DNA of 64,000 nt from Octopus vulgaris (taxonomy: Eukaryota). The stretch lies in NCBI GenBank assembly GCA_951406725.2, contig OX597843.1, positions 8,184,001 through 8,248,000 on the forward strand. The letters run 5' to 3'. Below, piece after piece: positions 14,137-62,701 of this stretch. The position numbers were made by a program, and so were the translations under genes. Numbering within the stretch: the stretch's first letter is position 1; every line of letters begins with the position of its first letter. The notes beneath the pieces are model-generated. The model searched no databases. It had not been told where the DNA came from and saw only the letters and a program-made list of their open reading frames with translations.

Positions 14137-14749
14137 CGTCTGTTTTGTCTTTTCATTTCGAATTCTCTTTGTATTTGCGTTTAGCTATGTTGTTGCTGCT
14201 GTTGTTGTTGTTATTAGCAGTACTAGCATGGCTGTTGTGGTTGTTGTTTTAAATGCCGTGTGATCTAAGGACGTGACATGATGCTGTTGATGGCAGTGGT
14301 GCTGGCGCTGGTACTGATAGTGGTAGTGGTTGTCATTGTTGTTGTTGTGGTATTGGTAGTGGTGGTTGTGGTGATAGTGATGGTAGTCATGGTTATGATG
14401 GCAGTGGTTGTGGTGGTGCTGGCGCTAGTGTTGACGGTGACGGTGGTTGTGGTATGATGGTCGTCGTTGTAGCGGTGGTGGTTGTGGTGGTGATGGTGGT
14501 GGTTGTGATTGTGGTAGTTGTTGTGATGCCATTTCTTGTAGAAGTAGTTATTGATGTAGTGGAAAGGTGAAGTGATTAGTGGTGTCTTGACTGCCACCAC
14601 GTTCTGAGTTCAAATTCCGCCGAGGTCGTCTTTACATTTCATCCTTTCTGGGTCGATAAATTAAGTACCAGTTGTGTATTGAGGGCGATCTAATCGTCTA
14701 GTTCCCACCCCCAAAATTTCGGAACTTGTGCCTAGTGTAGAAAAGACTA

Positions 14750-15374: not shown

Positions 15375-15590
15375 AAGGCAGTGTTCTGTCATTATCGTTA
15401 GTATGCTGAACGAAATGCTTAAAGGTTTGTACCTGTTTCTACGTTCTGAGTTCAAATTCCGTCGAGATCGACTTCACGCTTTATCCTTCTGGGGCCAGTA
15501 AAATATGTACCAGTGGAACACAGCGGTCGATGTAATCTACTCTTCCCCTCAACCAAAATTGTTGTCCTTGTGGCAAAACTTGAAACCATT
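15375..15590 (+). mobile_element. SINE C, older tail type, diverged, in (ATT)n
   Basis: AAGGCAG...CGAAATGCTTA...CGTTCTGAGTTCAAATTCC...; (ATT)n on both flanks. Confidence 0.7.
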
Positions 15591-22267: not shown

Positions 22268-22674
22268 TTACTCTTTACTCTTTTACTTGTTTCAGTCATT
22301 TGACTGTGGCCATGCTGGAGCACCACCTTTAATCGAGCAACTCGAGCCCGGGACTTATTTTTTGTAAGCCCAGCACTTATTCTATCAGTCTCTTTTGCCG
22401 AACCGCTAAGTGACAGGGACGTAAACACACCAGCATCGGTTGTCAAGCGATGCTAGGGGGACAAACACAGACACACAAGCACACACACATACATATATAT
22501 ATATACATATATACGACAGACTTCTTTCAGTTTCCGTCTACCAAATCCACTCACAAGGCATTGGTCGACCCGGGGCTATAGCAGAAGACACTTGCCCAAG
22601 ATGCCACGCAGTGGGACTGAACCCGGAACCATGTGGTTGTTTAGCAAGCTACTTACCACACAGCCACTCCTACG

Positions 22675-22718
<44 letters not shown>

Positions 22719-23049
22719 TACGACAGGCTTCTTTCAGTTTCCGTCTACCAAATCCACTCACAAGGCATTGGTCGGCCCGGGGCTATAGCAGAAGACACTT
22801 GCCCAAGATGCCACGCAGTGGGACTGAACCCGGGACCATGTGGTTGGTAAGCAAGCTACTTACCACACAGCCATACACATATATACGACAGGCTTCTTTC
22901 AGTTTCCGTCTACCAAATCCACTCACAAGGCATTGGTCGGCCCGGGGCTATAGCAGAAGACACTTGCCCAAGATGCCACGCAGTGGGACTGAACCGAGAA
23001 CCATGCGGTTGTTTAGCAAGCTACTTACCACACAGCCACTCCTGAGCCT
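22268..23049 (-). mobile_element. SINE A composite: three 5' modules, one tail
   Basis: Head modules at about 22512-22677, 22720-22872 and 22885-23049; single tail at 22268-22480. Confidence 0.9.
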
Positions 23050-23364
23050 ATAAATTTTTATTTATTTTTTTATTTATTTTTTTGAGGTTTAATTTTCTGA
23101 TATTGATTTCACTTCTGATCCTTCGGTGTATTTACACACCGTAGCCATTTTGATAATTAGTGCAAACGCTGCCGGTACATAATTTATAAGAGACAGCGTG
23201 CAATAACGCCATCATAATACGGTCGCGCATTATTACGATTGTTTTCATCAATATCGTTAAAAAATATGACTGAAGTTTTTTTTGTTGCTATTTTGTTGTG
23301 TTTGTTTCTGGGAGTAGGAGGAGAATTTTGCATTCTTTACTGTTACTTTTATACAGAGTAAAAT

Positions 23365-23412
<48 letters not shown>

Positions 23413-23521
23413 AACCTCAACCACCATTATCGTCGCCACCTTCCCCCGCGTCAACACCACTACCACCGTCAGCAAAAAACATAAACATCCTCGCCACAAC
23501 AAACACCATAGCCACTGTTGT

Positions 23522-23637
23522 GGAGGCGCAATGGCCCAGTGGTTAGGGCAGCGGAGTCGCGGTCGGAGGATCGCGGTTTCGATTCCCAGGCCGGGCGTTG
23601 TGTGAGTTTATTGAGCGAAAACACCTAAAGCTCCACA
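23522..23637 (+). mobile_element. SINE B head, truncated
   Basis: GGAGGCGCAATGGCCCAGTGGTTAGGGCAGCGG...CACCTAAAGCTCCAC. Confidence 0.85.
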
Positions 23638-23658
23638 TGTATATGTGTATATATATAT

Positions 23659-24240
23659 ACACTCTTTACTCTTTTACTTGTTTCAGTCATTTGACTGCGG
23701 TCATGCTGGAGCACCGCCTTTAGTCGAGCAAATCGACCCAGGGTCTTATTCTTTGTAAGCCCAGTACTTACTCTATCGGTCTCTTTTGCCGAACCGCTAA
23801 GTGACGGGGACGTAAACACACCAGCATCGGTTGTCAAGCAATGCTAGGGGGACAAACACAGACACACAAACACATACACACCTATATATATACATATATA
23901 TGACGGGCTTCTTTCAGTTTCCGTCTACCAAATCCACTCACAAGGCATTGGTCGGCCCGAGGCTATAGCAGAAGACACTTGTCCAAGATGCCACACAGTG
24001 GGACTGAACCCGGAACCATGTGGTTGATTAGCAAGCTACTTACCACCTTACCACACAGCCACTCCTGTATATAAATATACATATAGATATATATATGGGC
24101 TTCTCTCAGTTTCTGTTTACCAAATCCACTCACCAGGCCTTGGTTGGCTTGAGGCTCTAGTACAAGACACTTGTCCAGGGTGCCACACAGTGGGACCGAA
24201 TCCGGAACCACATGGTCGGGAAGCAAGCTTCTTACCACAC
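23659..24240 (-). mobile_element. SINE A full copy plus extra diverged head
   Basis: Reverse complement of the A consensus. Confidence 0.85.
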
Positions 24241-26460: not shown

Positions 26461-26468
26461 ATTAGATG

Positions 26469-27434
26469 AGGCGAGCTGGCAGAAACGTTAACGCGCCGGG
26501 CGAAATGCTTAACGGTATTTCGTCTGTCGTTATATTCTGAGTTCAAATTCCGCCGAGATCGACGTTGCCTTTCATCCTTTCGGGGTCGATGAAATAAGTA
26601 CCAGTTTCGCGCTGGGGTCGATGTAATCGACTTAATACGTTTGTCTGTCTTTGTTTGTCCCCTCTATGTTTAGCCCCTTGTGGGTAGTAAAGAAATAGGC
26701 ATTTCGTCTGCCGCTACGTTCTGACTTCAAATTCCGCCGAGGTCGACTTTGCCTTTCATCCTTTCGGGGTCGATGAATTAAGTACCAGTTTCGCGCTGGG
26801 GTCGATGTAATCGACTTAATCCCTTTGTCTGTCTTTGTTTGTCCCCTCTATGTTTAGCCCCTTGTGGGTAGTAAAGAAATAGGTATTTCGTCTGCCGCTA
26901 CGTTCTGACTTCAAATTCCGCCGAGGTCGACTTTGCCTTTCATCCTTTCAGGGTCGATAAATAAAGTACCAGTTTCGCCCTGGGGTCGATGTAATCGACT
27001 TAATCCCTTTGTCTGTCCTTGTTTGTCCCCTCTATGTTTAGCCCCTTGTGGGTAGTAAAGAAATAGGTATTTCGTCTGCCGCTACGTTCTGACTTCAAAT
27101 TCCGCCGAGGTCGACTTTGCCTTTCATCCTTTCAGGGTCGATAAATAAAATACCAGTTTCGCCCTGGGGGTCGATGTAATCGACTTAATCCCTTTGTCTG
27201 TCCTTGTTTGTCCCCTCTATGTTTAGCCCCTTGTGGGTAGTAAAGAAATAGGTATTTCGTCTGCCGCTACGTTCTGACTTCAAATTCCGCCGAGGTCGAC
27301 TTTGCCTTTCATCCTTTCAGGGTCGATGAATTAAGTACCAGTTTCGCCCTGGGGTCGATGTAATCGACTTAATCCCTTTGTCTGTCCTTGTTTGTCCCCT
27401 CTATGTTTAGCCCCTTGTGGGTAGTAAAGAAATA
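26469..27434 (+). mobile_element. SINE C array: one head plus five tandem 184-185-bp bodies
   Basis: Units start at 26514, 26698, 26882, 27066, 27251; junction AAAGAAATA|GG(T/C)ATTTCGTCTG. Body carries GCCTTTCATCCTTTCGGGGTCGATAAATTAAGTACCAG, which resembles the MetaSINE central domain as I recall it. Confidence 0.92.
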
Positions 27435-27645
27435 TAGATGAGGTTGAAACAAAAATGTTAGCTACAAGAAAACATTTCGCAATATAGAACTCCTTGGAAA
27501 CAGTAAATTTCATTGAAGTCACAAAGAACTTTCTCTTTACTCTCCATTGCCAAACTACTAATGAGCCATGAAAGAAAACCCCAAAACAGATATTCAATAA
27601 ACTGCTTCCCAGTTGTAATTATGTTTTATTTATACAAATATTGGT

Positions 27646-27807
27646 GCAGGAGTGGCTGTGTGGTAAGTAGATTGCTAACCAACCACATGGTTCCGGGTTC
27701 AGTCCCACTGCGTGGCATCTTGGGCAAGTGTCTTCTGCTATAGCCTTGGGCCGACCAATGCCTTGTGAGTGGATTTGGTAGACGGAAACTGAAAGAAGCC
27801 CGTCGTA

Positions 27808-27850
<43 letters not shown>

Positions 27851-28255
27851 ATATGTTTGTGTGTCTGTGTTTGTCCCCCCACCGTCGCTTGACAACCGAT
27901 GCTGGTGTGTTTACGTCCCCGTCACTTAGCGGTTCAGAAGTGTCTTCTGCTATAGCCCCAGTGCCTTGCTAGTGGATTTGGTAACTGAAAGAAGCCTGTC
28001 GTATATATGTATATATATATATGTATGTGTGTGTATGTGTTTGTGTGTCTATGTTTGTCCCCCTAGCATTGCTTGACAACCGATGCTGGTGTGGTTACGT
28101 CCCCGCCACTTAGCGTTTCGGCAAAAGATACCGATAGAATAAGTACTGGGCTTACAAAGAATAAGTCCCGGGGTCGATTTGGTCGACTAAAAGGCGGTGC
28201 TCCAGCATGGCCGCAGTCAAATGACTGAAACAAGCAAAAGAGAGAAAGAGAGAAA
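27646..28255 (+). mobile_element. SINE A with internal partial duplication
   Basis: Head 27646-27806, partial tail, re-entry at AAGTGTCTTCTGCTATAGCC (~27938), full tail to ~28255. Confidence 0.85.
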
Positions 28256-28679
28256 GATATCTCACGTCATGAAATGCTCAGGTTCTATACCTCAGGTTAT
28301 GTCATACTGCAGATTTCTAAAAAGAATGAAATACGGCTATAAACACGAATGGGCAGAAATAGGTATACAGTTCCGTAATATTTCTTCTTTTTTCTAGGGA
28401 TAAATATTATATGACTGTTTTTTTTAAAAACCTTATTCATAAGGAACGACGCACACACATGCGCGTAAACAGACAACAAAGAACGCAGCTCCAATAACGG
28501 ACAGAGTCAATATCCATTGACAAGGCTGCAAAAGCAACGACAATTTTAAGAAGAACATTCCGATGAGGTAAACTTAGCCATTCACCCTTTCGGGGTCGGT
28601 AAATTAAGTAGCAGTTGAGTACTGTGGTCGATCGAGTTATTCCGTTCTCCGGAATTGCTGGCCTTGTGCCAAAATCGTA

Positions 28680-32968: not shown

Positions 32969-32984
32969 TAATAATAATAATAAT

Positions 32985-33749
32985 GGCTTCAATTTTTTCG
33001 ACAAGGGCCGCAATTTGGGGGAGGGGATGAGTGTATTACATTGACCCCAGTATATCACTGGTACTTAATTTATCGACTACTAAAGGATGAGAGCCAAAGT
33101 CGACCTGGGAAGAATTTGAACTCAGAACTTGAAGACAGACGAAACACATATTTCTTTGCTACCTACAAGGGGCTAAACACAGAGGGGACAAACAAAGACA
33201 GACAAACGGATTAAGTCGATTACATCGACCCCAGTGCGTAACTGGTACTTAATTTATCGACCCCCGAAAGGACGAAAGGCAAAGTCGACCTCGGCGGAAT
33301 TTGAACTCAGAACGTAACGGCAGACGAAATACCTATTTCTTTACTACCCACAAGGGGCTAAACACTCAGAGGACAAACAAGGACAGACAAAGGGATTAAA
33401 TTGATTATATCGACTCCAGTGCGTAACTGGTACTTATTTCAACGACCCCGAAAGGATGAAAGGCAAAGTCGACCTCAGCGGAATTTGAACTCAAAACGTA
33501 ACGGCAGACGAAATACCTATATCTTTACTACCCACAAGGGGCTAAACACAGAGGGGAGAAACAAGGACAGTGAAAGAGATTAAGTCGATTACATCGACCC
33601 CAGTGCGTAACTGGTACTTATTTAATCGACCCCCGAATGGATGAAAGGCAAAGTCGACCTCGGCGGAATTTGAACTCAGAACGTAAAGGCAGACGAAATA
33701 CCGCTAAGCATTTCGCCCGGCGTGCTAACGTTTCTGCCAGCTCGCCGCC
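32985..33749 (-). mobile_element. SINE C array: head, three bodies, and a terminal body of the older tail type
   Basis: Minus-strand unit starts at 33702, 33517, 33333, 33148; head abuts (TTA)n. Confidence 0.9.
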
Positions 33750-33754
33750 TTAAC

Positions 33755-37839: not shown

Positions 37840-38279
37840 GATCAAAGGTGGATCCAACGATGACCATCCTTTAATTTTATTCACGCATAGTGTACCAAGG
37901 ACTACATTATCTAATGTGCTCTTCGTTCTTATTGTTGTAGCTTAGCCTTGAGTTAATCCTTAGTGAATCTGAATTATAATCAAAGATGTTCCATAGCATA
38001 GTGTTACCAAGGACTACATTATCTAATGGCATCTTCAAGTTCTATATGTGCTTAGCTAGAGTTAATCCTTAGTGAATATATATATATATATCAAAGATGT
38101 TCCATAGTCGCAGGAGTGGCTGTGTGGTAAGTAGCTTGCTTACCAACCACATGGTTCCAGGTTCAGTCCCACTACATGGCATCTTGGGCAAGTGTCTTCT
38201 GCTATAGCCTCGGGCCGACCAGTGCCTTGTGAGTGGATTTGGTAGACGGAAACTGAAATAAGCCCGCCGTATATGTATG

Positions 38280-38317
<38 letters not shown>

Positions 38318-38532
38318 CGCAGGAGTGTATGTGTGGTAAGAAGCTTGCTAACCAACCACATGGTTCCGGGTTCAGTCCTACTGCGTGGCATCTTGGGCAA
38401 GTGTCTTCTGCTATAGCCTCGGGCCGACCAATGCCTTGTGAGTGGATTTGGTAGATGGAAACTGAAAGAAGCCTGTCGTATATATGTATATATATATATA
38501 TGTATGTGTGTATATATATATATATGTATGTG

Positions 38533-38592
<60 letters not shown>

Positions 38593-39655
38593 CGCAGGAG
38601 TGGCTGTGTGGTAAATAGCTTGCTTACCAACCACATGGTTCCGGGTTCAGTTCCACTGCGTGGCATCTTGGGCAAACGTCTTCTGCTATAGCCTCGGGCC
38701 GACCAATGCCTGCCTTGTGAGTGGATTTGGTAGACGGAAACTGAAAGAAGCCTGTCGTATATATGTATATATATGTGTATGTATGTGTGTGTATATGCTT
38801 GTGTGTCTGTGTTTGTCCCCCTAGTATTGCTTGACAACCGATGCTGGTGTGTTTACTACCCCGTCACTTAGTGGTTCGGCAAAAGAGACCGATAGAATAA
38901 GTACTTGGCTTACAAAGAATAAGTCCCGGGGTCGATTTGCTCGACTAAAGGCGGTGCTCCAGTGTGGCCGCAGTCAAATGACTGAAACAAGTAAAAGAAA
39001 AAGATAGAAATACGACCATCCTGTCTTTTATTCAGGCATAGTGTATCTCGGACTACATTATTTAATGTGTCCTTTCTTGTTCTTTAGCCCCAGGTTAGTC
39101 CATATACAGACAGACCTATGATCAAAGACGTTCCAGCTGTGACCATCCTGTCTCTTATAAAGGCATAGTGTATCTAGGACTACATTATCTGATGTGCCCT
39201 TCTTTATTGTTATTTAGTTCCTGGTAAATTCTGATCCAAAAGACTTAAGATCGAAGTTGCTCCAGTCATGACCATCCTGTTTATTATTAAGACACAATGT
39301 ATCTAGGAGTAAACTTTCTAATGTGATCTTCCTCATTGTTGTTTAGCTCCTGGTCAGTCATCATTGTGATCAAAGACATTCCAGCTGTGACCATCCTGTC
39401 TTTTATTCAGGCATAGTGTATCTATGATCATAGACGTTCCAGCTGTGACCATCTGTGTATCAAGGACTACATCACCTAATGTGTCCTTCCTTGTTGTTGT
39501 TTAGCCCCAGGTCAGTCCTGATCCAGTCAGACCCATGATCAAAGACATTCCAGCTGTGGCCATCCTGTTTTTTATTCAGACATAGTGTATCTAGGACTAC
39601 ATCACCTAATGTGTCCTTCCTTATTGTTGTTTAGCCCTAGGTCAGTCCTGATCCT
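37840..39655. repeat. ~128-bp minisatellite interrupted by a SINE A cluster
   Basis: Unit ATCAAAGACATTCCAGCTGTGACCATCCTGTC...CATAGTGTATCTAGGACTACAT...TTAGCCCCAGGTCAGTCCTGATC; starts near 37841, 37979, 38090, 39121, 39249, 39369, 39428, 39538. Confidence 0.85.
38109..39005 (+). mobile_element. SINE A composite: three heads, one tail
   Basis: Heads near 38109, 38316 and 38591 separated by (TA)n; tail at 38800-39005. Confidence 0.9.
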
Positions 39656-39690: not shown

Positions 39691-39856
39691 CGTTCTGAGT
39701 TCAAATTCCGCCGAGGTCGATTTTGCCTTTCATCCTTTCGGGGTCGATAAATTAAGTACCAGTTACGCACTGGGGTCGATGTAATCGACTTAATCCCTTT
39801 GTCTGTCCTTGTCTGTCTCCTCTGTGTTTAGCCCCTTGTGGGCAATAAAGAAATAA
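39691..39856 (+). mobile_element. SINE C single body
   Basis: CGTTCTGAGTTCAAATTCC...GTGGGCAATAAAGAAATA. Confidence 0.9.
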
Positions 39857-45917: not shown

Positions 45918-46186
45918 TTATAATTTAGGGGATCTAAGAGATGCCTCCACGCTGGAAATAGCAGCCAAAACTTGACTCTAAAACCATATTAAATGTTCAT
46001 ACAGCACCAGGAGAGAAGACAAAAAAAAACAACAAAATAAACTAATAAAAAAATTACTGGATAATTACTAGTTTATTTTGTCTTGTTTTCTCTCCTGGTG
46101 CTGTATGAATATTTAATGTGGTTTTAGAGTCAAGTTTTGGCTGCTATTTCCAGCGTGGATGTATCTCTTAGATACCCTAAATTATA

Positions 46187-46187
<1 letters not shown>
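45918..46187. repeat. Long inverted repeat (arms ~120-130 bp)
   Basis: TTATAATTTAGGG..ATCTAAGAGAT..TCCACGCTGGAAATAGCAGCCAAAACTTGACTCTAAAACCA..CATACAGCACCAGGAGAGAA mirrored at 46069-46187. Confidence 0.9.
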
Positions 46188-46256
<69 letters not shown>

Positions 46257-46370
46257 ACTGCAAAATTAGGACGAATACTTGATAAGTGTAAGCACCAGTA
46301 TACGCCAGATAGTGGCAGAGGTGAGAGAGAATATATCAAATAAAATCAAAAACAGGACAGAAAGGATATC

Positions 46371-46462
46371 ACGGTATACGTGTTTCAAGCTTTATAAACG
46401 ACCTGTTCATTACATTAGTGTATGATAGACATAAAGCATGGTTTAAAGCTCTCTTCAGCCGC
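46371..46462 (-). ncRNA. Type-I hammerhead ribozyme motif (Penelope pLTR type)
   Basis: Minus strand GCGG-CTGAAGA-GAGCTTTA-[long loop]-TAAAGCTT-GAAA-CACGTA-TA-CCGT: intact CUGANGA/GAAA core, 8-bp stem II, 4-bp stem I, near-palindromic stem III. Confidence 0.65.
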
Positions 46463-46649
46463 ATGCATTGTTATTCCAAAGAGTTACATCACACTATAAA
46501 AAATATGAAAAGTACATGTAGTATTACCCATTATAATAGGTAAATCATATCTCCCCGAGAAAGTGTATTTGTAAAATCTCGTAACTGTATAACTATAAAA
46601 AGATTCATTAGATTTCGAAAATCTGCGCATACTGTATCACCAGTCAACA

Positions 46650-47047
46650 TAGAGTAGCCTGCTTACCAACCACATGGTTCTGGGTTCAGTCCCACTGCGT
46701 GGCACCTTGGGCAAGTATCTTATACTATAGCCTCGAGCCGACCAAAGCCTTGTGAGTGGATTTGGTAGAAGGAAACTGAAAGAATCCCGTCGTATATATG
46801 TATATATATATATGTATATGTGTACGTTTGTGTGTTTGTGTTTGTCCCTCCCCCCAACATCACTTGCCAACCGATGCTGGTGTGTTTACGTTCCCGTAGC
46901 TTAGCAGTTCGGCAAAAGAGACCGATAGAATAAGTACTAGGTTTACAAAGAATAAGTCCCGGGGTCGATTTGTTCGACGAAAGGCGGTGCCCCAGCATGG
47001 CCACAATCAAATGACTGAAACAAGTAAAAGAGTAAAGAGTAAAGAGT
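46650..47047 (+). mobile_element. SINE A
   Basis: AGTAGCCTGCTTACCAACC...AACAAGTAAAAGAGTAAAGAGTAAAGAGT. Confidence 0.9.
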
Positions 47048-47099
47048 ATATATATATATGTCTTCCAATCACATCTATCTATTTACCTACCTAACTATT

Positions 47100-48850
<1,751 letters not shown>

Positions 48851-48955
48851 TGTTGGGGGTCAAACAGACACACAAACATATACACACATACATATATATA
48901 TATACATATATACGAGGGTCTTCTTTCAGTTTCCGTCTACCAAATCCACTCACAA

Positions 48956-49019
48956 GGCCGAGATTTCCTTCATTAAATGAAGCTTAAAGTGTCGCTTGGA
49001 TCTTCCAAGTTATCTCACC

Positions 49020-49097
<78 letters not shown>

Positions 49098-49138
49098 GTA
49101 TACACTGTAAGCTTCATTTAATGAAGGAAATCTCGACC
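48956..49138. repeat. 37-bp inverted repeat enclosing (TA)n
   Basis: GGCCGAGATTTCCTTCATTAAATGAAGCTTAAAGTGT (48956-48992) versus the reverse complement of 49102-49138; 2 mismatches. Confidence 0.85.
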
Positions 49139-49366
49139 TGACGATTGGCTGAGTTGAGCAAATCTCATTGAGTAACAATTACATCTGTGGAACAGCGGGG
49201 ATGGTACATATATAATTTGCATTTTACATGTTCCAATCCCTGAATCTGGACATATAAATATACATATACATACACACACACATACATACATACATATATA
49301 TATATATATATGTATATATATGTATATGTATATATATGTATATGTATATATATATATATGTATATA

Positions 49367-49397
<31 letters not shown>

Positions 49398-49509
49398 GTA
49401 TGATTGATTGATTGATTGATTCTAGTTTCAGCTCGCGAGCTGTGGCCATGCTGGGGCACCGCCATTATATATATAGATATATATATATGTGTATATATAT
49501 ACATATGTA

Positions 49510-49650
49510 ACGGGAAAGTTTACTAAAATAAACAAAAGACGAAGGCAGGTGGAGTACAAACAAACAAATGTATTAGTATAGCGCTCAGGAATAGAAATAG
49601 AAAAAAGTCTTTTACGTTTCGAGCCTACGCTCTTCGACAGAAAGATACAC
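49510..49650 (-). mobile_element. Family H2 element, copy 2
   Basis: Minus strand TCTTT-CTGTCGA-AGAGC-GTAG-GCTC-GAAAC-GTA-AAAGA (49608-49645). Confidence 0.6.
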
Positions 49651-49661
49651 ATATATACATA

Positions 49662-49878
49662 TGTAGTGGTTTTTAAATCAAAGCTCGACCTCTTCTTGTC
49701 GAGAGTCCCAGATGAACCTACCTCACGGCAAGAGGTGCAAATGAAGGTAGCTACACCAAACTCCATTCTTCATCAATTGCCACATATTAGTGGAGGCTCC
49801 TAGTAATAACAGTGTAGCGCAAAACGGCGGTGCTTCAGCATGGCCGCAGCTCTTAGCTGGAACTTAAAAAAAAAAAAT
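49662..49878 (+). mobile_element. CR1/L2-group LINE 3' end (ORF2 C-terminus + 3'UTR); probable partner of SINE A
   Basis: VVFKSKLDLFLSRVPDEPTSRQEVQMKVATPNSILHQLPHISGGS* (stop 49801-49803), then GGCGGTGCTTCAGCATGGCCGCAGCTCTTAGCTGGAAC shared with the SINE A tail. Confidence 0.75.
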
Positions 49879-50051
49879 ATATATATATATACACATATAT
49901 ATGCATACATGCATTCATACATATATACACATGTGTATGCACAAGATTTCATTCACATATATGTATGTATACACACACACATATATAGAGACAGAAGTGT
50001 ATATATTCTCACACATGAGCATATGTATTTGCGCGCATGTACGAGTGTATA

Positions 50052-50138
<87 letters not shown>

Positions 50139-50316
50139 AACAATTAAAAATGAGGGTGTCTGAGAGACACCAACATGCCGAAATAGCAGTCGAAATGCTG
50201 ACTATAAAAACCACGTTAAGTGTTCATATCGTACCATGAGATAAGACAGAGGAACAAAATAGACAAGCAGAAGTTATTGAATAATTCAAGATCCAGGATT
50301 TCTGGTTTTGCTTTAA

Positions 50317-50382
<66 letters not shown>

Positions 50383-50679
50383 GTACCCATACCCAATGAC
50401 ATGTTGTTCACAAGCACTCACCCACTTCACTACACATACTTTATCAATCTGCAAAGCTACCCAAGGATGTAGAATTACAAAAACTGTCATAGAGCATCCC
50501 CACCCGCAAGTGCCGCCCTAGCTCCCCTTCATCCCGTTCCACACCACCTTTCTCCTGTTTTACTTTATTTTACATAATCTCACACCTCCTCTCAAACGAC
50601 TCCTCTTAAACATTATTTCACAAATAGTCAGGAATCACATCCTTTTGATTCCTTGCCTCTCTCTTTCTCTCTCTCCATT

Positions 50680-50737
50680 TATATATATATGTGTATGTGT
50701 GTGTATGTAAGCGTGTGTATGTATGTATGTATGTATG

Positions 50738-50825
<88 letters not shown>

Positions 50826-50994
50826 GATAGATAGATATATAGGTAGATAGATATACATACAAATACATATACATACATACATATATATACACACACGTAC
50901 TCATATACATTCATATATAGACATATGTGTAAAGATATAAGTATATATATATATTTCTACACACAAGCATATACATATATGTATTCACACATAA

Positions 50995-51036
<42 letters not shown>

Positions 51037-51114
51037 ATATATGTATATATATATATATATATGTATTCATACATACACACACACACACACGCATATATAT
51101 ATATATATATATAT

Positions 51115-51158
<44 letters not shown>

Positions 51159-51184
51159 TCATACACATATATATATATATATAC

Positions 51185-51242
<58 letters not shown>

Positions 51243-53059
51243 TCATACATACACACACATACACACATATATATACACACACACAAAATACATATATTTA
51301 TATACACAAGCATATACACATACGTACACATACACATTCTGTTGCAATCTCAAGGGTACGAACATAGCCACAGACACACGTGTACAAACATATATATACG
51401 TACGTACATCAGTTATTGGCATCGGTCACATGTATTTGTGTATCTAGAAGAGGAAGGAGAGGAATCTGGGGGTGAGAGGAGGAGGAAATAAAACAAGGAG
51501 GGTATGATTAAACATAGGAAAAAGGAGAAGGAAGAGGAGAAGGGGATTACGAATAGAAAAATGAGGAGAGAAGCAGAGAAAATTATGAAAGTCAAAAGGG
51601 AGAAATAATGGGGGCGATGGCGGGGGAGAAGAAGAAAAGGATGGAGGAGGAGGGGGAGGAGAAAAAGAAGAAGAAGAAGAATTGAAGAAGAAAAAGAAGA
51701 ACAAAGATGAAGAAGATAAAGAAAAAGAAGAAGAAGAAGGGTGAGGATGAGGAGAAGAAGAAGATAAAGAAGGAATGGAAGACGAGTAAAAGGGATGAAA
51801 GAGAAGAAGAAGAAGAAGAAGAAGAAGAAGAAGAAGAAGACGAAAAAGAAGACGAAAAAGAAGAAGAAGAAGAAGAAGAAGAAGAAAAAGAAGAAGAAGA
51901 AGAAGAAGAAGGAGAAGAAGAAGGAGAAGAAGAAGACGAAGAAGAGGAAGAAGAAGAAAAAGAAGACGGGGAAGAAGAAGAAAAGAAGAAGAACAGAGGT
52001 GAAGAAGAAGACGAAGAAGAAGAAGGAGAGCAACAACAACAACAACAATTGGATTGAAGACTAGATTGAAGAAGATGACCAGAATCACGAAGACAACGAC
52101 GTTGATGATGTTCATGATAATGTTACTGATGATGATGATAATGATGATGATGATGATAATGATGAAAAAGAAAGAAGACGAAGAAGAATTGGAAGAAGAA
52201 GAAGAATTGAAAGAAGAAGAAGAAGAAGAAGAAGAAGATGAACAAGAACAAGAATTGGAAGAAGAAGAAGAAGAAGAAGAAGAAGAAGAAGAAGAAGAAG
52301 AAGAAGAAGAAGAAGAAGAAGAAGAAGAATTGAAGAAGAAGAAGAAGAAGAAGAAGAAGAAGAAGAAGAAGAAGAAGAAGAAGAAGAAGAAGAAGAATTG
52401 AAAGAAGAAGGAGGAGAAGGAGAAGTGAAGGAAGAAGAAGACGGGGGGAAAGAGAAGAATGGGATGATTCTGATGGGGGGAAGAGAACGACTAAGATTTA
52501 AATGGACTTAAATTGACAATTGATGACATCAAGAACACAATGTTAAGTAAACCCTATTATAGACCGGAAATGAAAGCTATTAATGCTGGTGTGTAGATAG
52601 GTGCGTATATAGACATGTGTGTGTGTGTGTGTGTGGTTGTGGTTGTATATCGCTATGTGTATTTACATGTATGTTAACATGCGTACTTGCATATACGAGT
52701 TTAGATGTGTGTATGTATGTATGTATGTATGTATGTATGTATGTGTGTATGTATGTGTGTATGTATGTATGTATGTATGTATGTATGTATGTATGTATGT
52801 GTGTATGTATGTGTGTATGTATGTATGTATGTGTGTATGTATGTATGTATGTGTGTATGTATGTGTGTATGTATGTATGTATGTATGTATCTGTGTATGT
52901 TTATGTATGTATGTATGTATGTATGTGTGTGTATGTATGTATGTATGTGTGTATGTATGTATGTATGTGTGTATGTATGTATGTATGTATGTATGTATAT
53001 ATATGTATGTGTATATATATGTATGTATGTATGTGTGTGTATGTATGTATGTATGTATG

Positions 53060-53093
<34 letters not shown>

Positions 53094-53095
53094 TG

Positions 53096-53128
<33 letters not shown>

Positions 53129-53253
53129 GTGTGTATGTATGTATGTATGTATGTATGTGTATGTGTGTATGTATGTATGTATGTATGTGTGAGTGTGTCT
53201 GTATATGTAACTACATACCAACATGCATGTGTATATGTGTGTATGTATGTAAG

Positions 53254-53284
<31 letters not shown>

Positions 53285-53470
53285 ATGTATGTTTATGCAC
53301 ACACACACACGCCGATGTATATATGTATATATTTATGTATGTATGTATATGCATATATGTATGTCAATATATATATGTGTGTCCATGTGTGCGTTTAAAT
53401 ATATTTTACTTGTGTATATGCAAGTGTATTTGCATATGGTTTGTGAGCGTGTGTATATAAACACACTCAC

Positions 53471-53541
<71 letters not shown>

Positions 53542-53741
53542 GGTATGTATATATGTATATATATATATATACATACATACATACATATATATACATATAT
53601 ATATATAATACATACGAAAGTCTATGTATGCAAGCTTTAATACATACATACGTATATACATACATATACATATATGTATATATATGTATATATATGTATA
53701 TATATATGTATATGTATATACATATCAATCTATCTAAATAT

Positions 53742-53779
<38 letters not shown>

Positions 53780-53816
53780 GAGCGGGAAAGCTGGATGCCT
53801 ATATCCTTACATGATT

Positions 53817-53887
<71 letters not shown>

Positions 53888-53900
53888 TATATATATGCAA
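50680..53900. repeat. (TA)/(CA), (GAA)n, (TATG)n microsatellite fields
   Basis: Direct reading. Confidence 0.95.
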
Positions 53901-54145
53901 CACATGAATGTGTTTACGTAGGCTGAGGCGGAGTAGTTGTAAGAGAAGCCATCTTTGCTTCATTTGCCAACAACAACAACAACTACAACCACATAAACAA
54001 CACGAACAACAACAACAATGACTGCATCGACAGCAAGAACACCAACAACGACATGTACAATAGCATCTGTAACAAGAGTGACAAAGGATTTATCATGTCT
54101 ATTGTAATCAATGATAACAGCAGCGATAAGAACAAGGAGAAGAAT

Positions 54146-54980
54146 GAGCCAACGAGGGAGACCTCGACATGGGCAAAAAGGCTTGCAAGAAATAGCAGTC
54201 AAAATCACCCGAAATCACGTTTTACTGTTTAAGTACGTATATACGCGTTTAAGAGCCAACGAGGGAGACCTCGACATGGGCAAAAAGGCCTGCAAGAAAT
54301 AGCAGTCAAAACCACTTGAAATCACGTATATATGCGTTTATGAGCCAACGAGGGAGTCCTCGACATGGTAAAAAGGCCTGCAAGAAATAGCAGTCAAAAC
54401 CACCTGAAATCACGTTTTACTGTTTAGGTACGTATATATACGTAGGCGCAGGAGTGGCTGTGTGGTAAGTAGCTTGCTAACCAACCACATGGTTCCGGGT
54501 TCAGTCCCACTGCGTGGCATCTTGGGCAAGTGTCTTCTGCTATAGCCCCGGGCCGACCAATGCCTTGTGAGTGGATTTGGTAGACGGAAACTGAAATAAG
54601 CCTGTCGTATATATGTATATATATATATGTATGCGTGTGTGTGTTTGTCCCCTTAGCATTGCTTGACGACCGATGCTGGTGTGTTTACGTCCCCGTCACT
54701 TAGCGGTTCGGCAAAAGAGACCGATAGAATAAGTACTGGGCTTACAAAAGAATAAGTCCCGGGGTCGATTTGCTCGACTAAAGGCGGTGCTCCAGCATGG
54801 CCGCAGTCAAATGACTGAAACATGCAAAAGAGTAAAAGAGTATATGCGTTTATGTGCCAACGAGGGAGACCTCGACATGGGAAAAAAGCTTGCAAGAAAT
54901 AGCAGTCAAAACCACCTAAAATCACGTTTTACTGTTTAGGTACGTATATATGCGTTTATGAGCCAACGAGGGAGTTCTCG
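54146..54980. repeat. ~107-bp minisatellite interrupted by SINE A
   Basis: Unit GAGCCAACGAGGGAGACCTCGACATGG...GCAAGAAATAGCAGTCAAAACCAC..AAATCACG starting 54146, 54253, 54342, 54854, 54960. Confidence 0.9.
54445..54842 (+). mobile_element. SINE A, full length, inserted in the TA stretch of a minisatellite unit
   Basis: GGCGCAGGAGTGG...AAAAGAGTAAAAGAGTA. Confidence 0.92.
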
Positions 54981-55577
54981 AATTGAAAGATAGGTATGCT
55001 AGAAATAACAACCAAATCTCCCTCAAATTACGTTCTGCTGTCTTATATACATATATAAAAGAGGAAACAAAACGTGCACACTTTGGCTTTGGTAAGGATT
55101 CAATGGAACTAGACGTGCTAGGATCGAGCTGGAAATTTACACACCTATAGAAGGCGTGGTGTAGTTACGGCCAGAGTAGGTTTCAAGTCTCTATCTCGAT
55201 AACAAAGGCCTGAAACAAGGCATTTTCTGCGAGTGGGTGGATGTCATACACTATTGCCTTGAGTTGTGTTCACGCAACATGTTGGATTCTATGTGTGACT
55301 GTGCGCGTGTTTGCGCGAATGCAACGGAAAAATGGGTCGAAAATCACGTTCAATTTTTGAGTTTTTCGAAAAATAAAATATGAGCATATATGTAGGAAAA
55401 TTACCTGAATCGATTGGAGCAAGTTTGAATTCTCTAGCTTGAAAAATGCAAATTCTAGCAGTTTTGAGTGTGCCTTTTTAAGGAGTTCTCAGTTGAAAAT
55501 GGTGTCAAAATATAGCTCAAAATGAGAGAATTATTTTGCAGACCGAATAGCCTCAAAAATTAAAGGGGAAGTGATCT

Positions 55578-55888
55578 TAATCTATAAAGCTGAAGTTGTC
55601 TGTTTGTGACAGGTTTGGTAGCCTTCAACTAACACTATCTCCTCTAAAACCCTGCGGCGTAGGTGGCCAAAAATTGAGAGTGTGATAGAAGAAGGCTTGC
55701 TCTTCCATCTGTAGAAGATAAAATTCAAATCGGACCATGTTAACACCAAAAATTATTTACATCAAAAAGGTGCATTTCTTCTATGAAATTCCCTATTTTT
55801 TACGATTTTTTGACTGCTGTGTCGCCATTTTTCGGTGTATTTCAACCAGAAAAATGTTCACTTAAAGAGAACAACAAGCTACATAAAG
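55578..55888 (+). mobile_element. Probable non-autonomous Helitron 5' part
   Basis: Start ATCTATAAAGCTGAAGTTGTCTGTTTGTG resembles TC-initiated non-autonomous Helitron 5' ends; no 3' hairpin/CTRR seen (cut by SINE C). Confidence 0.4.
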
Positions 55889-55889
55889 T

Positions 55890-56270
55890 CGACAAACAAG
55901 GACAGACGAACGGATTAAGTCGATTATATCGACCCAGTGCGTAACTGGTACTTAATTTATCGACCCCGAAAGGATGAAAGGTAAAGTCGACCTCGGCGAA
56001 ATTTGAACTCAGAACGTAAAGACAGACGAAATACCTATTTCTTTATTACCCGCAAGGGGCTAAGCACAGAAGGGACAAACAAGGACAGACAAACGGATTA
56101 AGTAGATTATATCGACCCCAGTTCGTAACTGGTACTTAATTTATCGAACCCGAAAGGATGAAAGGCAAAGTCGACCTCGGCGGAATTTGAACTCAGAGCG
56201 TAGCGGCAGACGAAAGAAATACTACCAAGCATTTCGCCCGGCGTGCTAACGATTCGGCCAGCTCGCCGCC
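55890..56270 (-). mobile_element. SINE C: head, body and partial second body
   Basis: Junction AAAGAAATA|GGTATTTCG at 56036/56035; head abuts (TTA)n. Confidence 0.9.
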
Positions 56271-56296
56271 TTCATAATAATAATAATAATAATAAC

Positions 56297-56362
<66 letters not shown>

Positions 56363-56363
<1 letters not shown>

Positions 56364-56521
56364 GAGTGGTTGTGTGGTAAGTAGCTTGCTAACCAACCAC
56401 ATGGTTCCGGGTTCAGTCCCACTGCGTGGCACCTTGGGCAAGTGTCTTCTACTATAGCCTCGAGCCGACCAATGCCTTGTGAGTGGATTTGGTAGACGGA
56501 AACTGAAAGAAGCCTGTCGTA

Positions 56522-56580
<59 letters not shown>

Positions 56581-56748
56581 ATATTTATATATAGGCGCAG
56601 GAGTGGCTGTGTGGCGTAGCTGCACCAGCCACATGGTTCCGGATTCAGTCCACTGCGTGGCATCTTGGCAAGTGTCCTCTGCTATAGCCTCGGGCCGACC
56701 AAAGCCTTGTGAGTGGATTTGGTAGACGGAAACTGAAAGAAGCCTGTC

Positions 56749-56804
<56 letters not shown>

Positions 56805-57015
56805 TTGTGTGTCTGTGTTTATCCCCCTAGCATTGCTTGACAACCGATGCTGGTGTGTTTACGTCCCCGTCACTTAGCCGTTCGGCAAAAGAGACCGATA
56901 GAATAAGTACTGGGCTTACAAAAGAATAAGTCCCGGGATTGATTTGCTCGACTAAAGGCGGTGCTCCAGCATGGCCGCAGTCAAATGACTGAAACAAGTA
57001 AAAGAGTAAAAGAGT
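56363..57015 (+). mobile_element. SINE A composite: two heads, one tail
   Basis: Heads near 56363 and 56594; tail to about 57015. Confidence 0.9.
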
Positions 57016-57395
57016 AATAATAAAAAACTCCATGCGCGTCATCTACAGTTAATGCTATTCTTGTTGTCAATATTGTTAATCAATAATCGATAATCGATTT
57101 TTGTCTTTTGTGTTTTAGTTAAACTTGCTGATTGTTTATTGGGAGTCTTATTTATTGTTCATTTCACTTGTGTGTAGTGCCGGTGGTGGTGGTGGTGGTG
57201 GTGGTGGTGGTGGTGGTGGTGGTGGTGGTGGTGATGGTGAATGCAATGGTAGTGGTGATGGTGGTGGTGGTAATGATGGGAGTGTTGATAATGTTGGTGG
57301 TTATGGTGGTGGTGGTATTGACGGTGGTGGTGGTGGTAGTGGTGGTGGTGGTTTTGGAGTGATGATGATGATGATGGTGATGGTGGTGGTGGTGG

Positions 57396-57426
<31 letters not shown>

Positions 57427-57902
57427 GGTGGTGGTGGTGGTGGTGGTGGTGGTGGTGGTGGTGGTGGTTTTGGCTACGGTTGAGTGATGATGATGATGAT
57501 GGTGGTGGTGTTGGTGGCGGTGGTGGTAGTGGTGGTGGCGGTGGTGGTAGTGGTTGTAGTGGTGCTGGTGATAGTAGTTAAGGCGTTAGTGATGGCAGCG
57601 GTGGCGATGCTGATGATGCTGGTGACAGTGATTGAGACGATGACAACGTTGATGGTGGGAATGACGATGTTGATGATGATGATGGTGTTGGTGGTGGTGG
57701 TGGTGGTGGTGGTGGTGCGGTGGCGGTGATGTTCTGATGATGGTTGTAGTGATGATAATGCTGATGATCGTGGAATTGGCGACGACAATGTTGGCGGTGC
57801 CGTTCATGTTGCTGTTTATATTAGCATCGTTGGTGATGGTCATGGTTTTTACTGTCATCTCTGTTGTTCTCTCCGCTGCTGCAGTTGCTGCTGCTGTTGC
57901 TG

Positions 57903-58266
57903 TTGAGCGAACGGTCTTCGTCCCAGAGCTCGCAAGATGGGAGAAGTCCGAAACGTGGTCCTTTGCTATTTGTAAGACCCGCAGAAGAGAAAGCAGGTCA
58001 ACCCCCGACACCGAGAGCATAGACGGATGGATGAAAGCACATCCAGGCTCAGCGGTTGCGTAGGAAGTCGGGGACAAGAAACAGGAAGAGAGAGTGAGAG
58101 AAAGTTGGAGCGAAAGAGTACAACAGGGGTCGCCACCACCCCTGCCGGAGCCTCGTGGAGCTTTAGGTGTTTTCGCTCAATAAACACACACAACGCCCGG
58201 TATGGGAATCGAAACCGCGATCCTACGACCGCGAGTCCGCTGCCCTAACCACTGGGCCATTGCGCC
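57903..58266 (-). mobile_element. SINE B head/body with alternative tail 3
   Basis: B head/body, then CCCCGACTTCCTACGCAACCGCTGAGCCTGGATG...GGGACGAAGACCGTTCGCTCAACAGCAAC. Confidence 0.85.
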
Positions 58267-58430
58267 GCCACTACTGCTGCCTTTGTCGTCCATTCTTTTC
58301 GCTATTTTTCAAACGTTCCCGTTGCTCTTTTCAAAGTTCTTCTTCTTCTTATCATCACTATCTTTTGCAGCCAAACTTGGCATCGATCTTCAGATCCATA
58401 TCGGCCCTGATTGAGCAGTTGAACAATCCT

Positions 58431-58843
58431 GGGATCTTTTCGGTTTGACCGGCAGTTTTTAAAATAATTTCCACGTAACTAAACACTTTTAAACTTCGTA
58501 TTCTGGTAGAATGTGTTTATAAAACATCTTTTTCTCTTGGCTTTATTGAGAAAATTCTAGAGGTTGTAAGATATTTGTTGTTTTTTTTCTTCAATTTCTT
58601 CAATTTCAACCAATCAATGACGTCTATTGAGGTAAAAAACATTCTGTGCCGTATGAATATGACCCTCGTTTAAGAAACAGATTGGGTTTATCTACATTTG
58701 TGAAGAAAAAAAGATACCCTTCCCCCCACCCCTAACCCTAACCCTAAAACAGATTGAAATGCAATAGATCGATACTAGGGTTATGGGTGACAATTTCATA
58801 TGACACCGCTAGAGAAAACTGCCGTTCAAACCGAAAAGATCCC
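58431..58843. mobile_element. Non-autonomous TIR DNA transposon (MITE) with TSD
   Basis: 29-bp TIR GGGATCTTTTCGGTTTGA(C/A)CGGCAGTTTT. TSD is AATCCT (6 bp) or, with GG termini, CAATCCTG (8 bp; 58424-58431 and 58843-58850). Internal CCTAACCCTAACCCTAA. Confidence 0.9.
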
Positions 58844-58999
58844 AATCCTGTATTAACAAAACAAAAAACCAAAAAAAAAACAGAAAATGAAAAAACAACA
58901 ACGTATTCCAGCCGTGACGATCCCGACTTTTCCTTGTATAATTACGTCTAACCTTCACTACAACAACAACGTTTACGGCTTTATACTTCGTGTCATTAT

Positions 59000-60410
59000 C
59001 ACTACCACAACCACCATCACCAACACCACCACCACCAACAACACTAACATCCCCACCGCAACCACAAACACCATCAACACCACCACTACCATCAACATCA
59101 TCATAACCAGCACCACGAATTCCAACACCACTTCCACCACGAGTGCCACCACCACCACCAACAACAACAACACCAACACCACAAGCGGCACCACTACAAT
59201 CAGTAACACCACCACCACCACCACCAACACCACCACCACAACCGCCACCACCACCACCATCATCACCACCACCACCACCAACCACCACCCGCCACCACCA
59301 CCACCAACACCAACAACACAACCACCACCAACACCACCACCACCACCACCACCACCACCACTACCAACACCATCACCACCACCATCACCACCACCACCAT
59401 CACTACCACCATCATCACCAACCACCACCGCCACCACCACCACCACCACCACCACAACCACCACAACCACCACAATCAGCACAACCACCATCGACAGAGG
59501 TGTGATTTGATGGAGATTTAGCTTCTATTTCTAGCACCTCGAATTCTCCCCACCAAAGCACTATTAATTACTGCCAATATTGTCATTCATCCATTGTTGT
59601 CGTTGTTCTTCTTCTTGTTGTTCTCGTCAGTAGCCATTAATACTGTTGCGTACAACACAATGGCGTCTTCATTTACCGCACGGCAATAAATTATAGTCGG
59701 AGGGATTGGTTTTGCACGCTCTATAAACAATGGCGGTATTGGCGGTGGTGGTATGGTGGTGGTGGTGGTTGTAGTTGTGGTAGTAATGATGGTTGTGGTG
59801 GTTGTTGTTGTGGTGGTGGTGGTGGTGGTTGTGGTGGTGGTGGTGTTGGTGGCGGTGGTGATGGTGGTGGTGGTGGTAGTGGTGGTTGTAGTTGTGGTAG
59901 TAGTGATGGTTGTGGTGGTGGTCGTCGTAGTGGTGGTGGTGGTGGTAGTGGTGGTATTAGTGATGGTGGTTGTAGTAGTGGTAGTAGTAGTGCTTGTGGT
60001 GGTGGTGGTGGTGGTGGTATTAGTGATGGTGGTTGTAGTAATGGTAGTAGTGATGGTTGTGGTGGTGGTGGTCGTCGTCGTCATTGTCGTTGTCGTCGTG
60101 GAGGTGGTGGTGGAGGTGGTGGTGGTGGAGGTGGGGGCAGTGATGCTGGAATTGGTTGTGCTGGTATTAGTGATTGTGGTTGTGGTTACGGTAGTAGAGG
60201 TAGTGGTAGTTGTGGTGGTGGTAGTGGTAGTGGTAGTGGTGGTAGTGGTGGTGATAGTAGCGGTGGTGGTGATGGCCGCGTCATCGTCTTTGCAGTCTTC
60301 TCGCCGATTTGTTGGTGTTGGTTGGTGAAGATTGGCGGTGTTGGTGGTGATGGTCATTTTAGCATGGTAGTGTCTGTGGTTGTGGTGGTGGTGGTAGTTG
60401 TGGTGTGATG
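59000..60410. repeat. (ACC)n and (GGT)n fields around a unique island
   Basis: Direct reading. Confidence 0.9.
59645..59745. promoter_or_regulatory. Candidate cis-regulatory island
   Basis: ACAATGGCG 59657, GATTGG (CCAAT box) ~59704, TATAAACAATGGCGG 59722-59736. Confidence 0.35.
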
Positions 60411-60414
60411 GTGG

Positions 60415-60929
60415 CACAATCGCAAAACACGCCAGAAATATTTCTTAGTCCGTTTTTATGTTCTGAGTTCAAATTCCGTCGGGAGTGACTTCGCCTTTCA
60501 TCCGTTTGGGGTCGATAAATTAAGTACCAGTCAAGTACTGGGGTCTATTTCATCGACTAACCCCCGGACTCAAAATTGCGGGCCTTGTATCTATAACAGA
60601 AAGACTTTTAACGCAGCGAGCTGGCAGAATTGTAAACATGCCAGAAAAAAATGGCTTAGGTTCTCAGTTGTCAGAACGTAGTGATAGGCGAAATACCTAT
60701 TTCTTTATGACCCACAAGGGGCTAAACACAGAGGGGACAAACAAGGACAGACATATGTATTAAGTCGATTATATCGAGCTCAATGCGTTACTGGTACTCA
60801 ATTTAATCGACCCCGAAAGGATGAAAGGCAAAGTCGACCTCGGCGGAATTTGAACTCACGACGTAACGGCAGACGAAATACTGCTCAGCATTTCGTCCGG
60901 CGTGCTAACGTTTCTACCAGCTCGCCACC
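60415..60929. mobile_element. SINE C cluster (old + strand copy, + strand head fragment, - strand head/body with one junction)
   Basis: GTTCTGAGTTCAAATTCC at 60460; minus-strand junction at 60698/60697. Confidence 0.85.
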
Positions 60930-61024
<95 letters not shown>

Positions 61025-61069
61025 TATAATAATAATAATAATAACAAAAACAACAACAACAACAACAAT

Positions 61070-62160: not shown

Positions 62161-62163
62161 TCC

Positions 62164-62464: not shown

Positions 62465-62534
<70 letters not shown>

Positions 62535-62536
<2 letters not shown>

Positions 62537-62701
62537 GTTCTGAGTTCAAATTCCGCCGAGGTCGACTTTGCCTTTCATCCTTTCGGGGTCGGAAAAATAA
62601 AGTACCAGTTACACCCTGGGGTCAATATAATCGACTTAATCCCTTTGTCTGTCCTTGTTTGTCCCCTCTGTGTTTAGCCCCTTGTGGGTAGTAAAGAAAT
62701 A
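62535..62701 (+). mobile_element. SINE C single headless body in (ATT)n
   Basis: CGTTCTGAGTTC...GTAGTAAAGAAATA; ATT repeats on both sides. Confidence 0.9.

What the first reader, a model, noticed from the sequence alone, without database searches (positions are those of the whole stretch)
26469..27434. SINE C 'one head + n x 184-bp body' arrays with a fixed junction in the head's hairpin loop
Seen: nine junctions at four loci (four here; three at 33518, 33334, 33149; one each at 56036 and 60698) join the 3' end ...AAAGAAATA to GGTATTTCG... at the same position. In the consensus head, CGGGCGAAATGC-TTAGCG-GTATTTCGTCTG forms a 12-bp stem (with GU pairs) where a tRNA anticodon arm would be, between A-box-like and B-box-like (GTTCAAATTCC) motifs. 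The unit starts at the last loop base, and the 3' end GAAATA is complementary to TATTTC at the unit start. Inference: the RNA may be cut in the pseudo-anticodon loop and either circularised (rolling-circle reverse transcription, retrozyme-like but with no hammerhead) or concatenated by RT template jumping or site-specific self-insertion. Caveat: units 2-5 here share CTGACTTC and units 3-5 share TTTCAGGG, which suggests local expansion too.
Basis: partly seen in the sequence, partly recalled or inferred. Interest (0 to 1): 0.8.

Follow-up and report, generated by a model that had tools for sequence, protein, structure and literature searches.

The report
SINE that inserts into its head
A short jumping gene, probably of an octopus, forms tens of thousands of one-head, many-body arrays, likely because its tail matches a spot in its own head and steers new copies into older ones, not because it makes a circular RNA.

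Summary
In detail: five 184-bp bodies behind one tRNA-like head, nine junctions in the window, at least 29,197 exact junctions genome-wide. The circle idea is not supported.

Single copies in ordinary DNA sit in 9-24 bp target-site duplications (TSDs), and the bases after the tail are most often GGTAT, the same letters as head nt 50. In 20 of 25 inspected double-head loci a full copy sits inside an older copy at nt 50, usually with a visible TSD. A head variant with C at nt 50 is almost never hit (2 of 75). Last units often come from an older subfamily or a sister SINE, and a second junction exists at nt 17 (282 exact). Long arrays then grow locally.

Best reading: tail-guided insertion into existing heads, with the 5' end usually resolved by homology. 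Open gap: the motif alone predicts about 1% of such hits, yet 39 of 101 elements are arrays, so a second amplifier is needed. Read-through composite RNAs or template jumps remain live rivals. Verdict: new variant of SINE-derived tandem arrays.

The parts
26463..26471 (+). 5' copy of 9-bp target-site duplication; its last two bases overlap the first head bases
26470..26513 (+). SINE C head, nt 6-49 of the 234-nt reference copy (window 33751..33518, minus strand); A-box-like motif about 26477-26487 (box label from recall); minor junction site nt 17 at 26481
26497..26526 (+). Head hairpin, 12-13 bp stem with 4-nt loop; nt 50 (26514) is the first base of the 3' arm and the main target site
26514..26697 (+). 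Unit 1 (nt 50-234), with B-box-like motif 26541-26551 (label from recall); differs from units 2-5
26698..27434 (+). Units 2-5 (26698, 26882, 27066, 27251), sharing private variants: local expansion
27435..27443 (+). 3' copy of the target-site duplication
32975..33751 (-). Second array: head, three C units, then an older sister-family (B2) unit from nt 51 with its own tail; start coordinate approximate
55881..56272 (-). Head, one C unit and a partial second unit; no TSD found, likely cut by a later deletion
60670..60931 (-). Head, one C unit and about 28 bases of a following unit
39691..39855 (+). 5'-truncated single C copy
62533..62701 (+). 5'-truncated single C copy in an ATT microsatellite
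15375..15541 (+). Free copy of sister family B (same head and core, other tail); further B copies at 14566-14699, 28557-28632 and 60445-60558

Best explanation
This tRNA-headed SINE inserts preferentially at GGTAT-like sites, nt 50 of its own and a sister SINE's head is such a site, and new copies likely landed inside older ones there, which would found most one-head arrays. SHOWN: the target motif; TSD-flanked full copies inside older heads at nt 50; avoidance of heads with C at nt 50; older last units; local growth of long arrays. INFERRED: the RNA ends in about GGUAUU, which pairs with the nicked target and primes reverse transcription by an unidentified LINE (endonuclease preference could give the same motif). 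INFERRED: the cDNA end usually pairs with the homologous host head, leaving one head, while about 0.4% of heads keep a double head. INFERRED: longer RNA-DNA pairing or easier 5' joining lifts the hit rate 30-100-fold above the motif alone. Arrays of three or more units then grow mostly by unequal exchange. Odds: 0.5 for this in-place route; about 0.7 that the junction is an insertion target site at all (with rival 1 added).
For: Target motif: after the tail of 83 terminal copies in non-SINE DNA, G 59%, G 59%, T 82%, A 82%, T 71%, with C at position 1 in 0 of 83. 16 of 59 TSDs start GGT against 1.1% background. Some copies have GG or GGT only downstream (L145, L163, L175), so the RNA likely supplies it. 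Double heads: 75 exact; 20 of 25 inspected have head, full copy, then host resuming at nt 50, with host-private variants duplicated (20 bp in L243 and L264, 17 bp in L257). Host older than insert in 15 of 18, younger in 1 (0.076 vs 0.020, p=0.0008). C-at-50 heads are the outer head in 2 of 75 against 41% expected (p=1e-14). Single-head arrays: last B unit older than the adjacent C unit in 29 of 38 (0.052 vs 0.035, p=0.003) and as old as free B copies (0.060 vs 0.058). An older C subfamily is last unit 11 times and is followed by a unit only at nt 17 (5 of 5), while two younger tail types are followed at nt 50 148 times. Host traces: head nt 3-16 divergence 0.095 vs 0.061 in C monomers and 0.119 in B monomers (p=0.03); B-type marker at nt 65 in 6 of 24 first units vs 3 of 76 monomers (p=0.006).
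Against: The motif alone predicts 0.3-1.4% hits at nt 50. That matches the double-head rate (75 vs 18,307) but not 39 of 101 elements being arrays. Heads of single-head arrays are mostly donor-type: the C-specific head variant is in 6 of 36 C+B arrays vs 0 of 47 free B copies, and nt 17-32 is C-like. 29 of 30 nt-17 loci have one head although only about 30 bp of homology is available, and nt 21 is not host-type in 4 of 6 informative loci. TSD decay in C+B arrays is only weakly higher than in monomers (0.16 vs 0.116, p=0.09) and does not track B age (rho 0.08). In C-only arrays first and last units do not differ in age (0.029 vs 0.033, p=0.24). L024 is a headless four-unit array inside a duplication of about 58 bp, easier to read as one cDNA.
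Confidence: 0.5

Rival explanations
1. Composite read-through RNAs: rare self-insertions found loci whose inner head is transcribed through the junction into the host remainder, and these multi-unit RNAs from many founders are retrotransposed whole using the host's tail.
For: No run of four T on the sense strand of the focal array. One TSD flanks the whole array in 29 of 47 C+B and 18 of 41 C-only arrays. Donor-type heads. The double-head rate equals the motif-only expectation. Older last units are also predicted. L024.
Against: No recurring founder: 29 distinct marker combinations in 29 C-C dimers and 25 in 26 C-B dimers, with 0 of 20 cross-unit associations in C-B. Between-locus pairs rarely share two rare variants (1 of 1,319 second-unit pairs). 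Host-like nt 3-16. Arrays that truly end inside a unit show no TSD. Hundreds of founders would escape these tests.
Confidence: 0.2
2. Template jumping: the LINE reverse transcriptase copies one SINE RNA back to the hairpin at nt 50 (or to nt 17) and jumps by microhomology onto the GGUAUU end of a second RNA, in one insertion event.
For: One head, donor-type, with a TSD around the whole. Independent units in dimers. B never internal. L1 ORF2p makes concatemers by template jumping in vitro (PMC10830420, passages).
Against: It predicts equal ages, but last B units are older and match free B copies; CpG decay 0.23 vs 0.09 in arrays ending in other B families. It does not explain the TSD-bearing double heads.
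Confidence: 0.15
3. One or a few dimeric masters, or local duplication between the short GGTAT repeats at nt 50 and in the TSD, followed by unequal crossing-over.
For: Internal neighbours in arrays of four or more units share 50% of rare variants (40 pairs, identity 0.963). Dimers ending in GG share two or more rare variants in 4 of 11 vs 1 of 18. Middle markers are concordant in C-C dimers (nt 128/131: 0.76 vs 0.48).
Against: Both tail variants form junctions at similar rates (6,133/20,813 and 23,064/67,054; patterns differ in extent). Last units come from several families. A second junction exists at nt 17. GG ends are not enriched in arrays (15 of 47 vs 28 of 79). It accounts for growth and a minority of dimers, not for founding.
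Confidence: 0.1
4. One reading: the RNA is cut in a pseudo-anticodon loop, ligated to a 184-nt circle and copied by rolling-circle reverse transcription.
For: Dominant junction at a hairpin; the tail end is complementary to the unit start.
Against: C-start junctions 0.9% vs 41% C-at-50 heads, although a cut one base later would hide this. A circle gives identical units, no head, no foreign last unit and permuted ends, whereas complete arrays end at natural tails. No CUGANGA core on either strand; no Rfam hit near gathering score. Loop is 4 nt.
Confidence: 0.03

Closest known systems
TSD-(SINE)n-TSD multimers of the blood clam S. broughtonii (Martelossi et al. 2024, PMC11481361; section 15 and passages read)
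   Same: Mollusc tRNA-SINE arrays with one complete head, repeated head-truncated units and one TSD pair; some include other families.
   Different: There internal units are truncated at both ends and about 3% of SINEs are affected, with unequal recombination suggested. Here each unit keeps its full tail, 39 of 101 elements are arrays, and the breakpoint equals the element's target motif.
SINE-derived satellites sSat1-3 of squamates (Vassetzky et al. 2023, PMC10702118; parts 1, 3 and 4 of 5 read)
   Same: Tandem sub-SINE units with a longer terminal unit; homogeneity rises with length.
   Different: Those tend to be subtelomeric, reach hundreds of units and are attributed to unequal recombination. 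These are dispersed, 2-11 units in my sample, and founded from different copies.
SINEU of crocodilians with Tx1-Mar (Kojima 2015, PMC4494074; passages)
   Same: A SINE preferring a site in another repeat (13-90% of copies), often in tandem by sequential insertion.
   Different: The target there is a Mariner and is attributed to the LINE endonuclease; tandem copies sandwich a TSD. Here the target is the SINE's own head.
RTE-related SINEs whose 3' repeat sets the TSD start (Nishiyama and Ohshima 2018, PMC6007223; abstract, passages and section 18)
   Same: The tail sequence predicts the first TSD bases; same proposed pairing step.
   Different: Microhomology there is 1-2 bases in animals and TSDs mostly 13 bp or less; here a 5-base motif and TSDs of 9-24 bp. 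Partner LINE not identified.
Metazoan non-LTR retrozymes (PMC7229834; passages)
   Same: Short tandem repeats, from dimers upward.
   Different: Defined by type I hammerheads and circular RNA; no hammerhead core here, and a separate head is present.

Membership tests
tRNA-derived SINE | Head with Pol III A and B boxes of tRNA origin | tested here: inconclusive
   Box-like motifs visible (labels from recall), but ARAGORN finds no tRNA and Rfam none
tRNA-derived SINE | Short, dispersed, high-copy, TSD-flanked | tested here: met
   87,867 exact tails; TSD in 41 of 62 monomers vs 7 of 300 controls
tRNA-derived SINE | 3' tail shared with a partner LINE | tested here: inconclusive
   No tail match next to the 30 best RT loci of 56,077 candidates
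tRNA-derived SINE | Pol III transcript | not testable with these tools
   RNA reads map at family level, unstranded, with no defined ends
Octopus OK, OR1, OR2 SINEs (Ohshima and Okada 1994) | Sequence identity to the published families | not testable with these tools
   Seen only as a reference; no Repbase or Dfam here
MetaSINE | 66-bp Meta domain after the head | tested here: inconclusive
   By eye no likeness to the BivaMeta-SINE1 rows in supplement part 1 of 4; no alignment run
Non-LTR retrozyme | Type I hammerhead in each unit | tested here: not met
   No CUGANGA on either strand; no Rfam ribozyme hit
Non-LTR retrozyme | Circular monomer RNA | not testable with these tools
   The junction exists in DNA, so reads across it prove nothing
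SINE-derived satellite (sSat) | Tandem units shorter than the SINE with an extended terminal unit | tested here: met
SINE-derived satellite (sSat) | At least four middle monomers; subtelomeric bias | tested here: not met
   3 of 106 arrays that could be counted as 6 or more units ending in B (2 six-, 1 seven-) plus one 11-mer; listed hits run along chromosomes; position not tested formally
Fixed dimeric SINE (Alu-like) | One master with fixed left and right arms | tested here: not met
   29 of 29 and 25 of 26 distinct marker combinations; variable unit number and last-unit family

The most novel reading that the evidence does not exclude
A self-targeting SINE: its RNA guides insertion into its own family by extended pairing, 30-100-fold above the motif alone, and the head variant that swaps a U-G pair for G-C spread because it keeps the hairpin while becoming immune to being split by its own kin.
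Probability: 0.25. Interest if true: 0.75.

Novelty: new variant of a known kind. Interest (0 to 1): 0.48.

Why it matters
It gives a concrete, testable route from dispersed SINEs to tandem repeats, a link that PMC10702118 calls thinly evidenced. The breakpoint is set by the element's own target motif, and growth by unequal exchange comes second. The family has at least 29,197 exact junctions, so it supplies a large natural data set on 3' priming and on the poorly understood 5' joining step of LINE-driven insertion. The never-hit head variant is a built-in control. It also warns that repeat libraries for this genome will mis-split these composites.

Tried and rejected
Rfam (two hits at E 0.45 and 1.3, far below gathering score) and ARAGORN: nothing. 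Whole-RNA fold is no better than shuffles (z -0.91). Partner LINE: only the 30 best of 150 scored RT loci were read; no shared tail. RNA: no RNA holder on record. Three raw RNA runs gave 46,072-62,705 laid reads, mostly under 90% alike, balanced on both strands, with no shared start or end, so they say nothing on circles or 3' ends. A-start junctions (893) barely exceed the neighbouring G-to-A control (675): not discriminating. A long-TSD model with the host copied from nt 50 far into unit 1 was rejected for most C-B dimers (concordance 0.54 vs 0.53). The nt 33-49 age comparison was set aside because the monomers were chosen on an exact match there. Truncated arrays: of 7 starting past nt 50 the script found no short TSD. 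Earlier scan findings: none. Ten paper searches listed no description of this junction; subscription papers, Repbase entries and the library files of PMC13282606 were not seen.

Full report
Setting. The window lies on contig C30 of G000, 2.8 Gb in 227 contigs. That the animal is an octopus is my inference from recall and genome size; it was not tested. Positions are given on one natural 234-nt copy (window 33751..33518, minus strand). 'C' is the family in the finding; 'B' is my label for sister SINEs with the same head and core to nt 169 and other tails. Data: 464 kb of contiguous C30 plus C1 loci chosen on the junction, a B tail or a head motif, giving 316 elements after dropping edge-cut and duplicate ones. 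Later sets were double heads (25 of 30 loci; overlaps dropped), nt-17 junctions (30) and A-start junctions (26 of 30). Exact-match selection favours young copies. Six head-selected loci already fetched as junction loci were counted there, which lowers the array share of the head-selected set.

Observation. The array, the nine junctions and the hairpin are real. Exact junctions number 23,064 and 6,133 for the two tail variants, with reversed controls at 0. Among C30 and head-selected elements that begin with a C unit, 62 are single and 39 have 2-6 units.

The junction is a target site. Monomers carry TSDs (41 of 62; control 7 of 300; 9-24 bp). After the tail of 83 terminal copies in non-SINE DNA the commonest letters spell GGTAT, and C never stands first. 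Head nt 50-56 reads GGTATTT. A search for a head fragment followed by a new head gave 75 exact matches against 18,307 normal heads. In 20 of 25 inspected, the host resumes at nt 50 after the inserted copy and repeats its private bases; the other five are different structures. Hosts are older than inserts. The head variant with G45-C50 makes up 41% of exact heads but 2 of 75 outer heads, and C-start junctions are 211, as the motif predicts. A second class mirrors this: 5 of 83 targets begin AGA, head nt 17 begins AGAA, and 282 exact junctions lie there.

How dimers arise. In C-C dimers the units are about as unlike as units of different loci (0.898 vs 0.882; 3 of 28 share two rare variants). 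47 of 106 sampled arrays end in a B unit, and B is not seen internally (one such label there is a C unit with a deletion). Last B units are older than their C neighbours and as old as free B copies. An older C subfamily serves as last unit but never precedes an nt-50 junction. This polarity fits insertion into resident copies. Against a simple version: heads are mostly donor-type, C-only arrays show no age gap, TSD decay is equivocal, and the motif alone predicts only 0.3-1.4%. Partial host traces at nt 3-16 and nt 65 suggest a crossover within the head. Microhomology-guided 5' joining is described for L1 and Alu (PMC2881922, passages); replacement of upstream target by homologous RNA sequence in R2 is from my recall. 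I give 0.5 to in-place insertion, 0.2 to composite read-through RNAs founded the same way, and 0.15 to template jumping.

How long arrays grow. Internal neighbours share half their rare variants. In the focal array units 2-5 share variants that unit 1 lacks. Some GG-ended dimers look like local duplications. Head fragments and TSD-containing units also expand in tandem (L248 and L264; L121), so local expansion is general in this genome.

Circle model. There is no hammerhead core, Rfam hit or tRNA. The loop is 4 nt. Complete arrays end at natural tails and carry a head and foreign last units. RNA reads cannot decide.

Literature. Similar architectures are in print for a clam (PMC11481361) and for squamates (PMC10702118), and target-preferring SINEs for crocodilians (PMC4494074). 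A link between tail and TSD start is in print for RTE SINEs (PMC6007223). PMC13282606 (part 1 of 3 and passages) and PMC9115989 (passages) showed no mention of such arrays in what I read. PMC4758252, PMC4824008 and PMC5804259 were seen as passages, plus part of the supplement of PMC4824008. Ten searches found no account of this junction; Repbase and the 1994 octopus SINE paper were out of reach, so the family itself may already have a name.

Verdict. Real and large in scale; a new variant of SINE-derived tandem arrays with a shown founding step and an unexplained 30-100-fold excess. Interest 0.48.

Noticed in passing
L121 (G000:C1:15778139-15781173): A 101-bp tandem of the 3' part of family B plus its TSD, at least six copies, follows a head + 5 C + B array: the TSD-(SINE-TSD)n type.
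   Followed up: partly
L264 and L248: The 65-67 bp head fragment left by a double-head insertion is itself expanded, 11 times in L264 and twice in L248.
   Followed up: partly
L163: Six-unit array with a private junction at nt 84: a local duplication in another register.
   Followed up: no
L024 / L110: Headless four-unit array inside a duplication of about 58 bp that starts with the target motif.
   Followed up: partly
L084, near G000:C1:3067000: A C dimer sits at the matching site of a more diverged tRNA-like head.
   Followed up: no
window 22489-24238, 27646-28062, 38076-38820: Other SINE-like families also form short tandems (periods 165-275) joined through TA microsatellites.
   Followed up: no
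C monomers: Subfamily markers are strongly mosaic: head type is unlinked to most mid-body markers but linked to nt 174 and 224, which suggests frequent exchange among copies.
   Followed up: partly
L211-L240: Many near-identical LINE copies with open frames of up to about 950 codons, which suggests a young family; clade not determined.
   Followed up: no
L222: Tandem C2H2 zinc-finger-like coding repeats downstream of a LINE copy.
   Followed up: no
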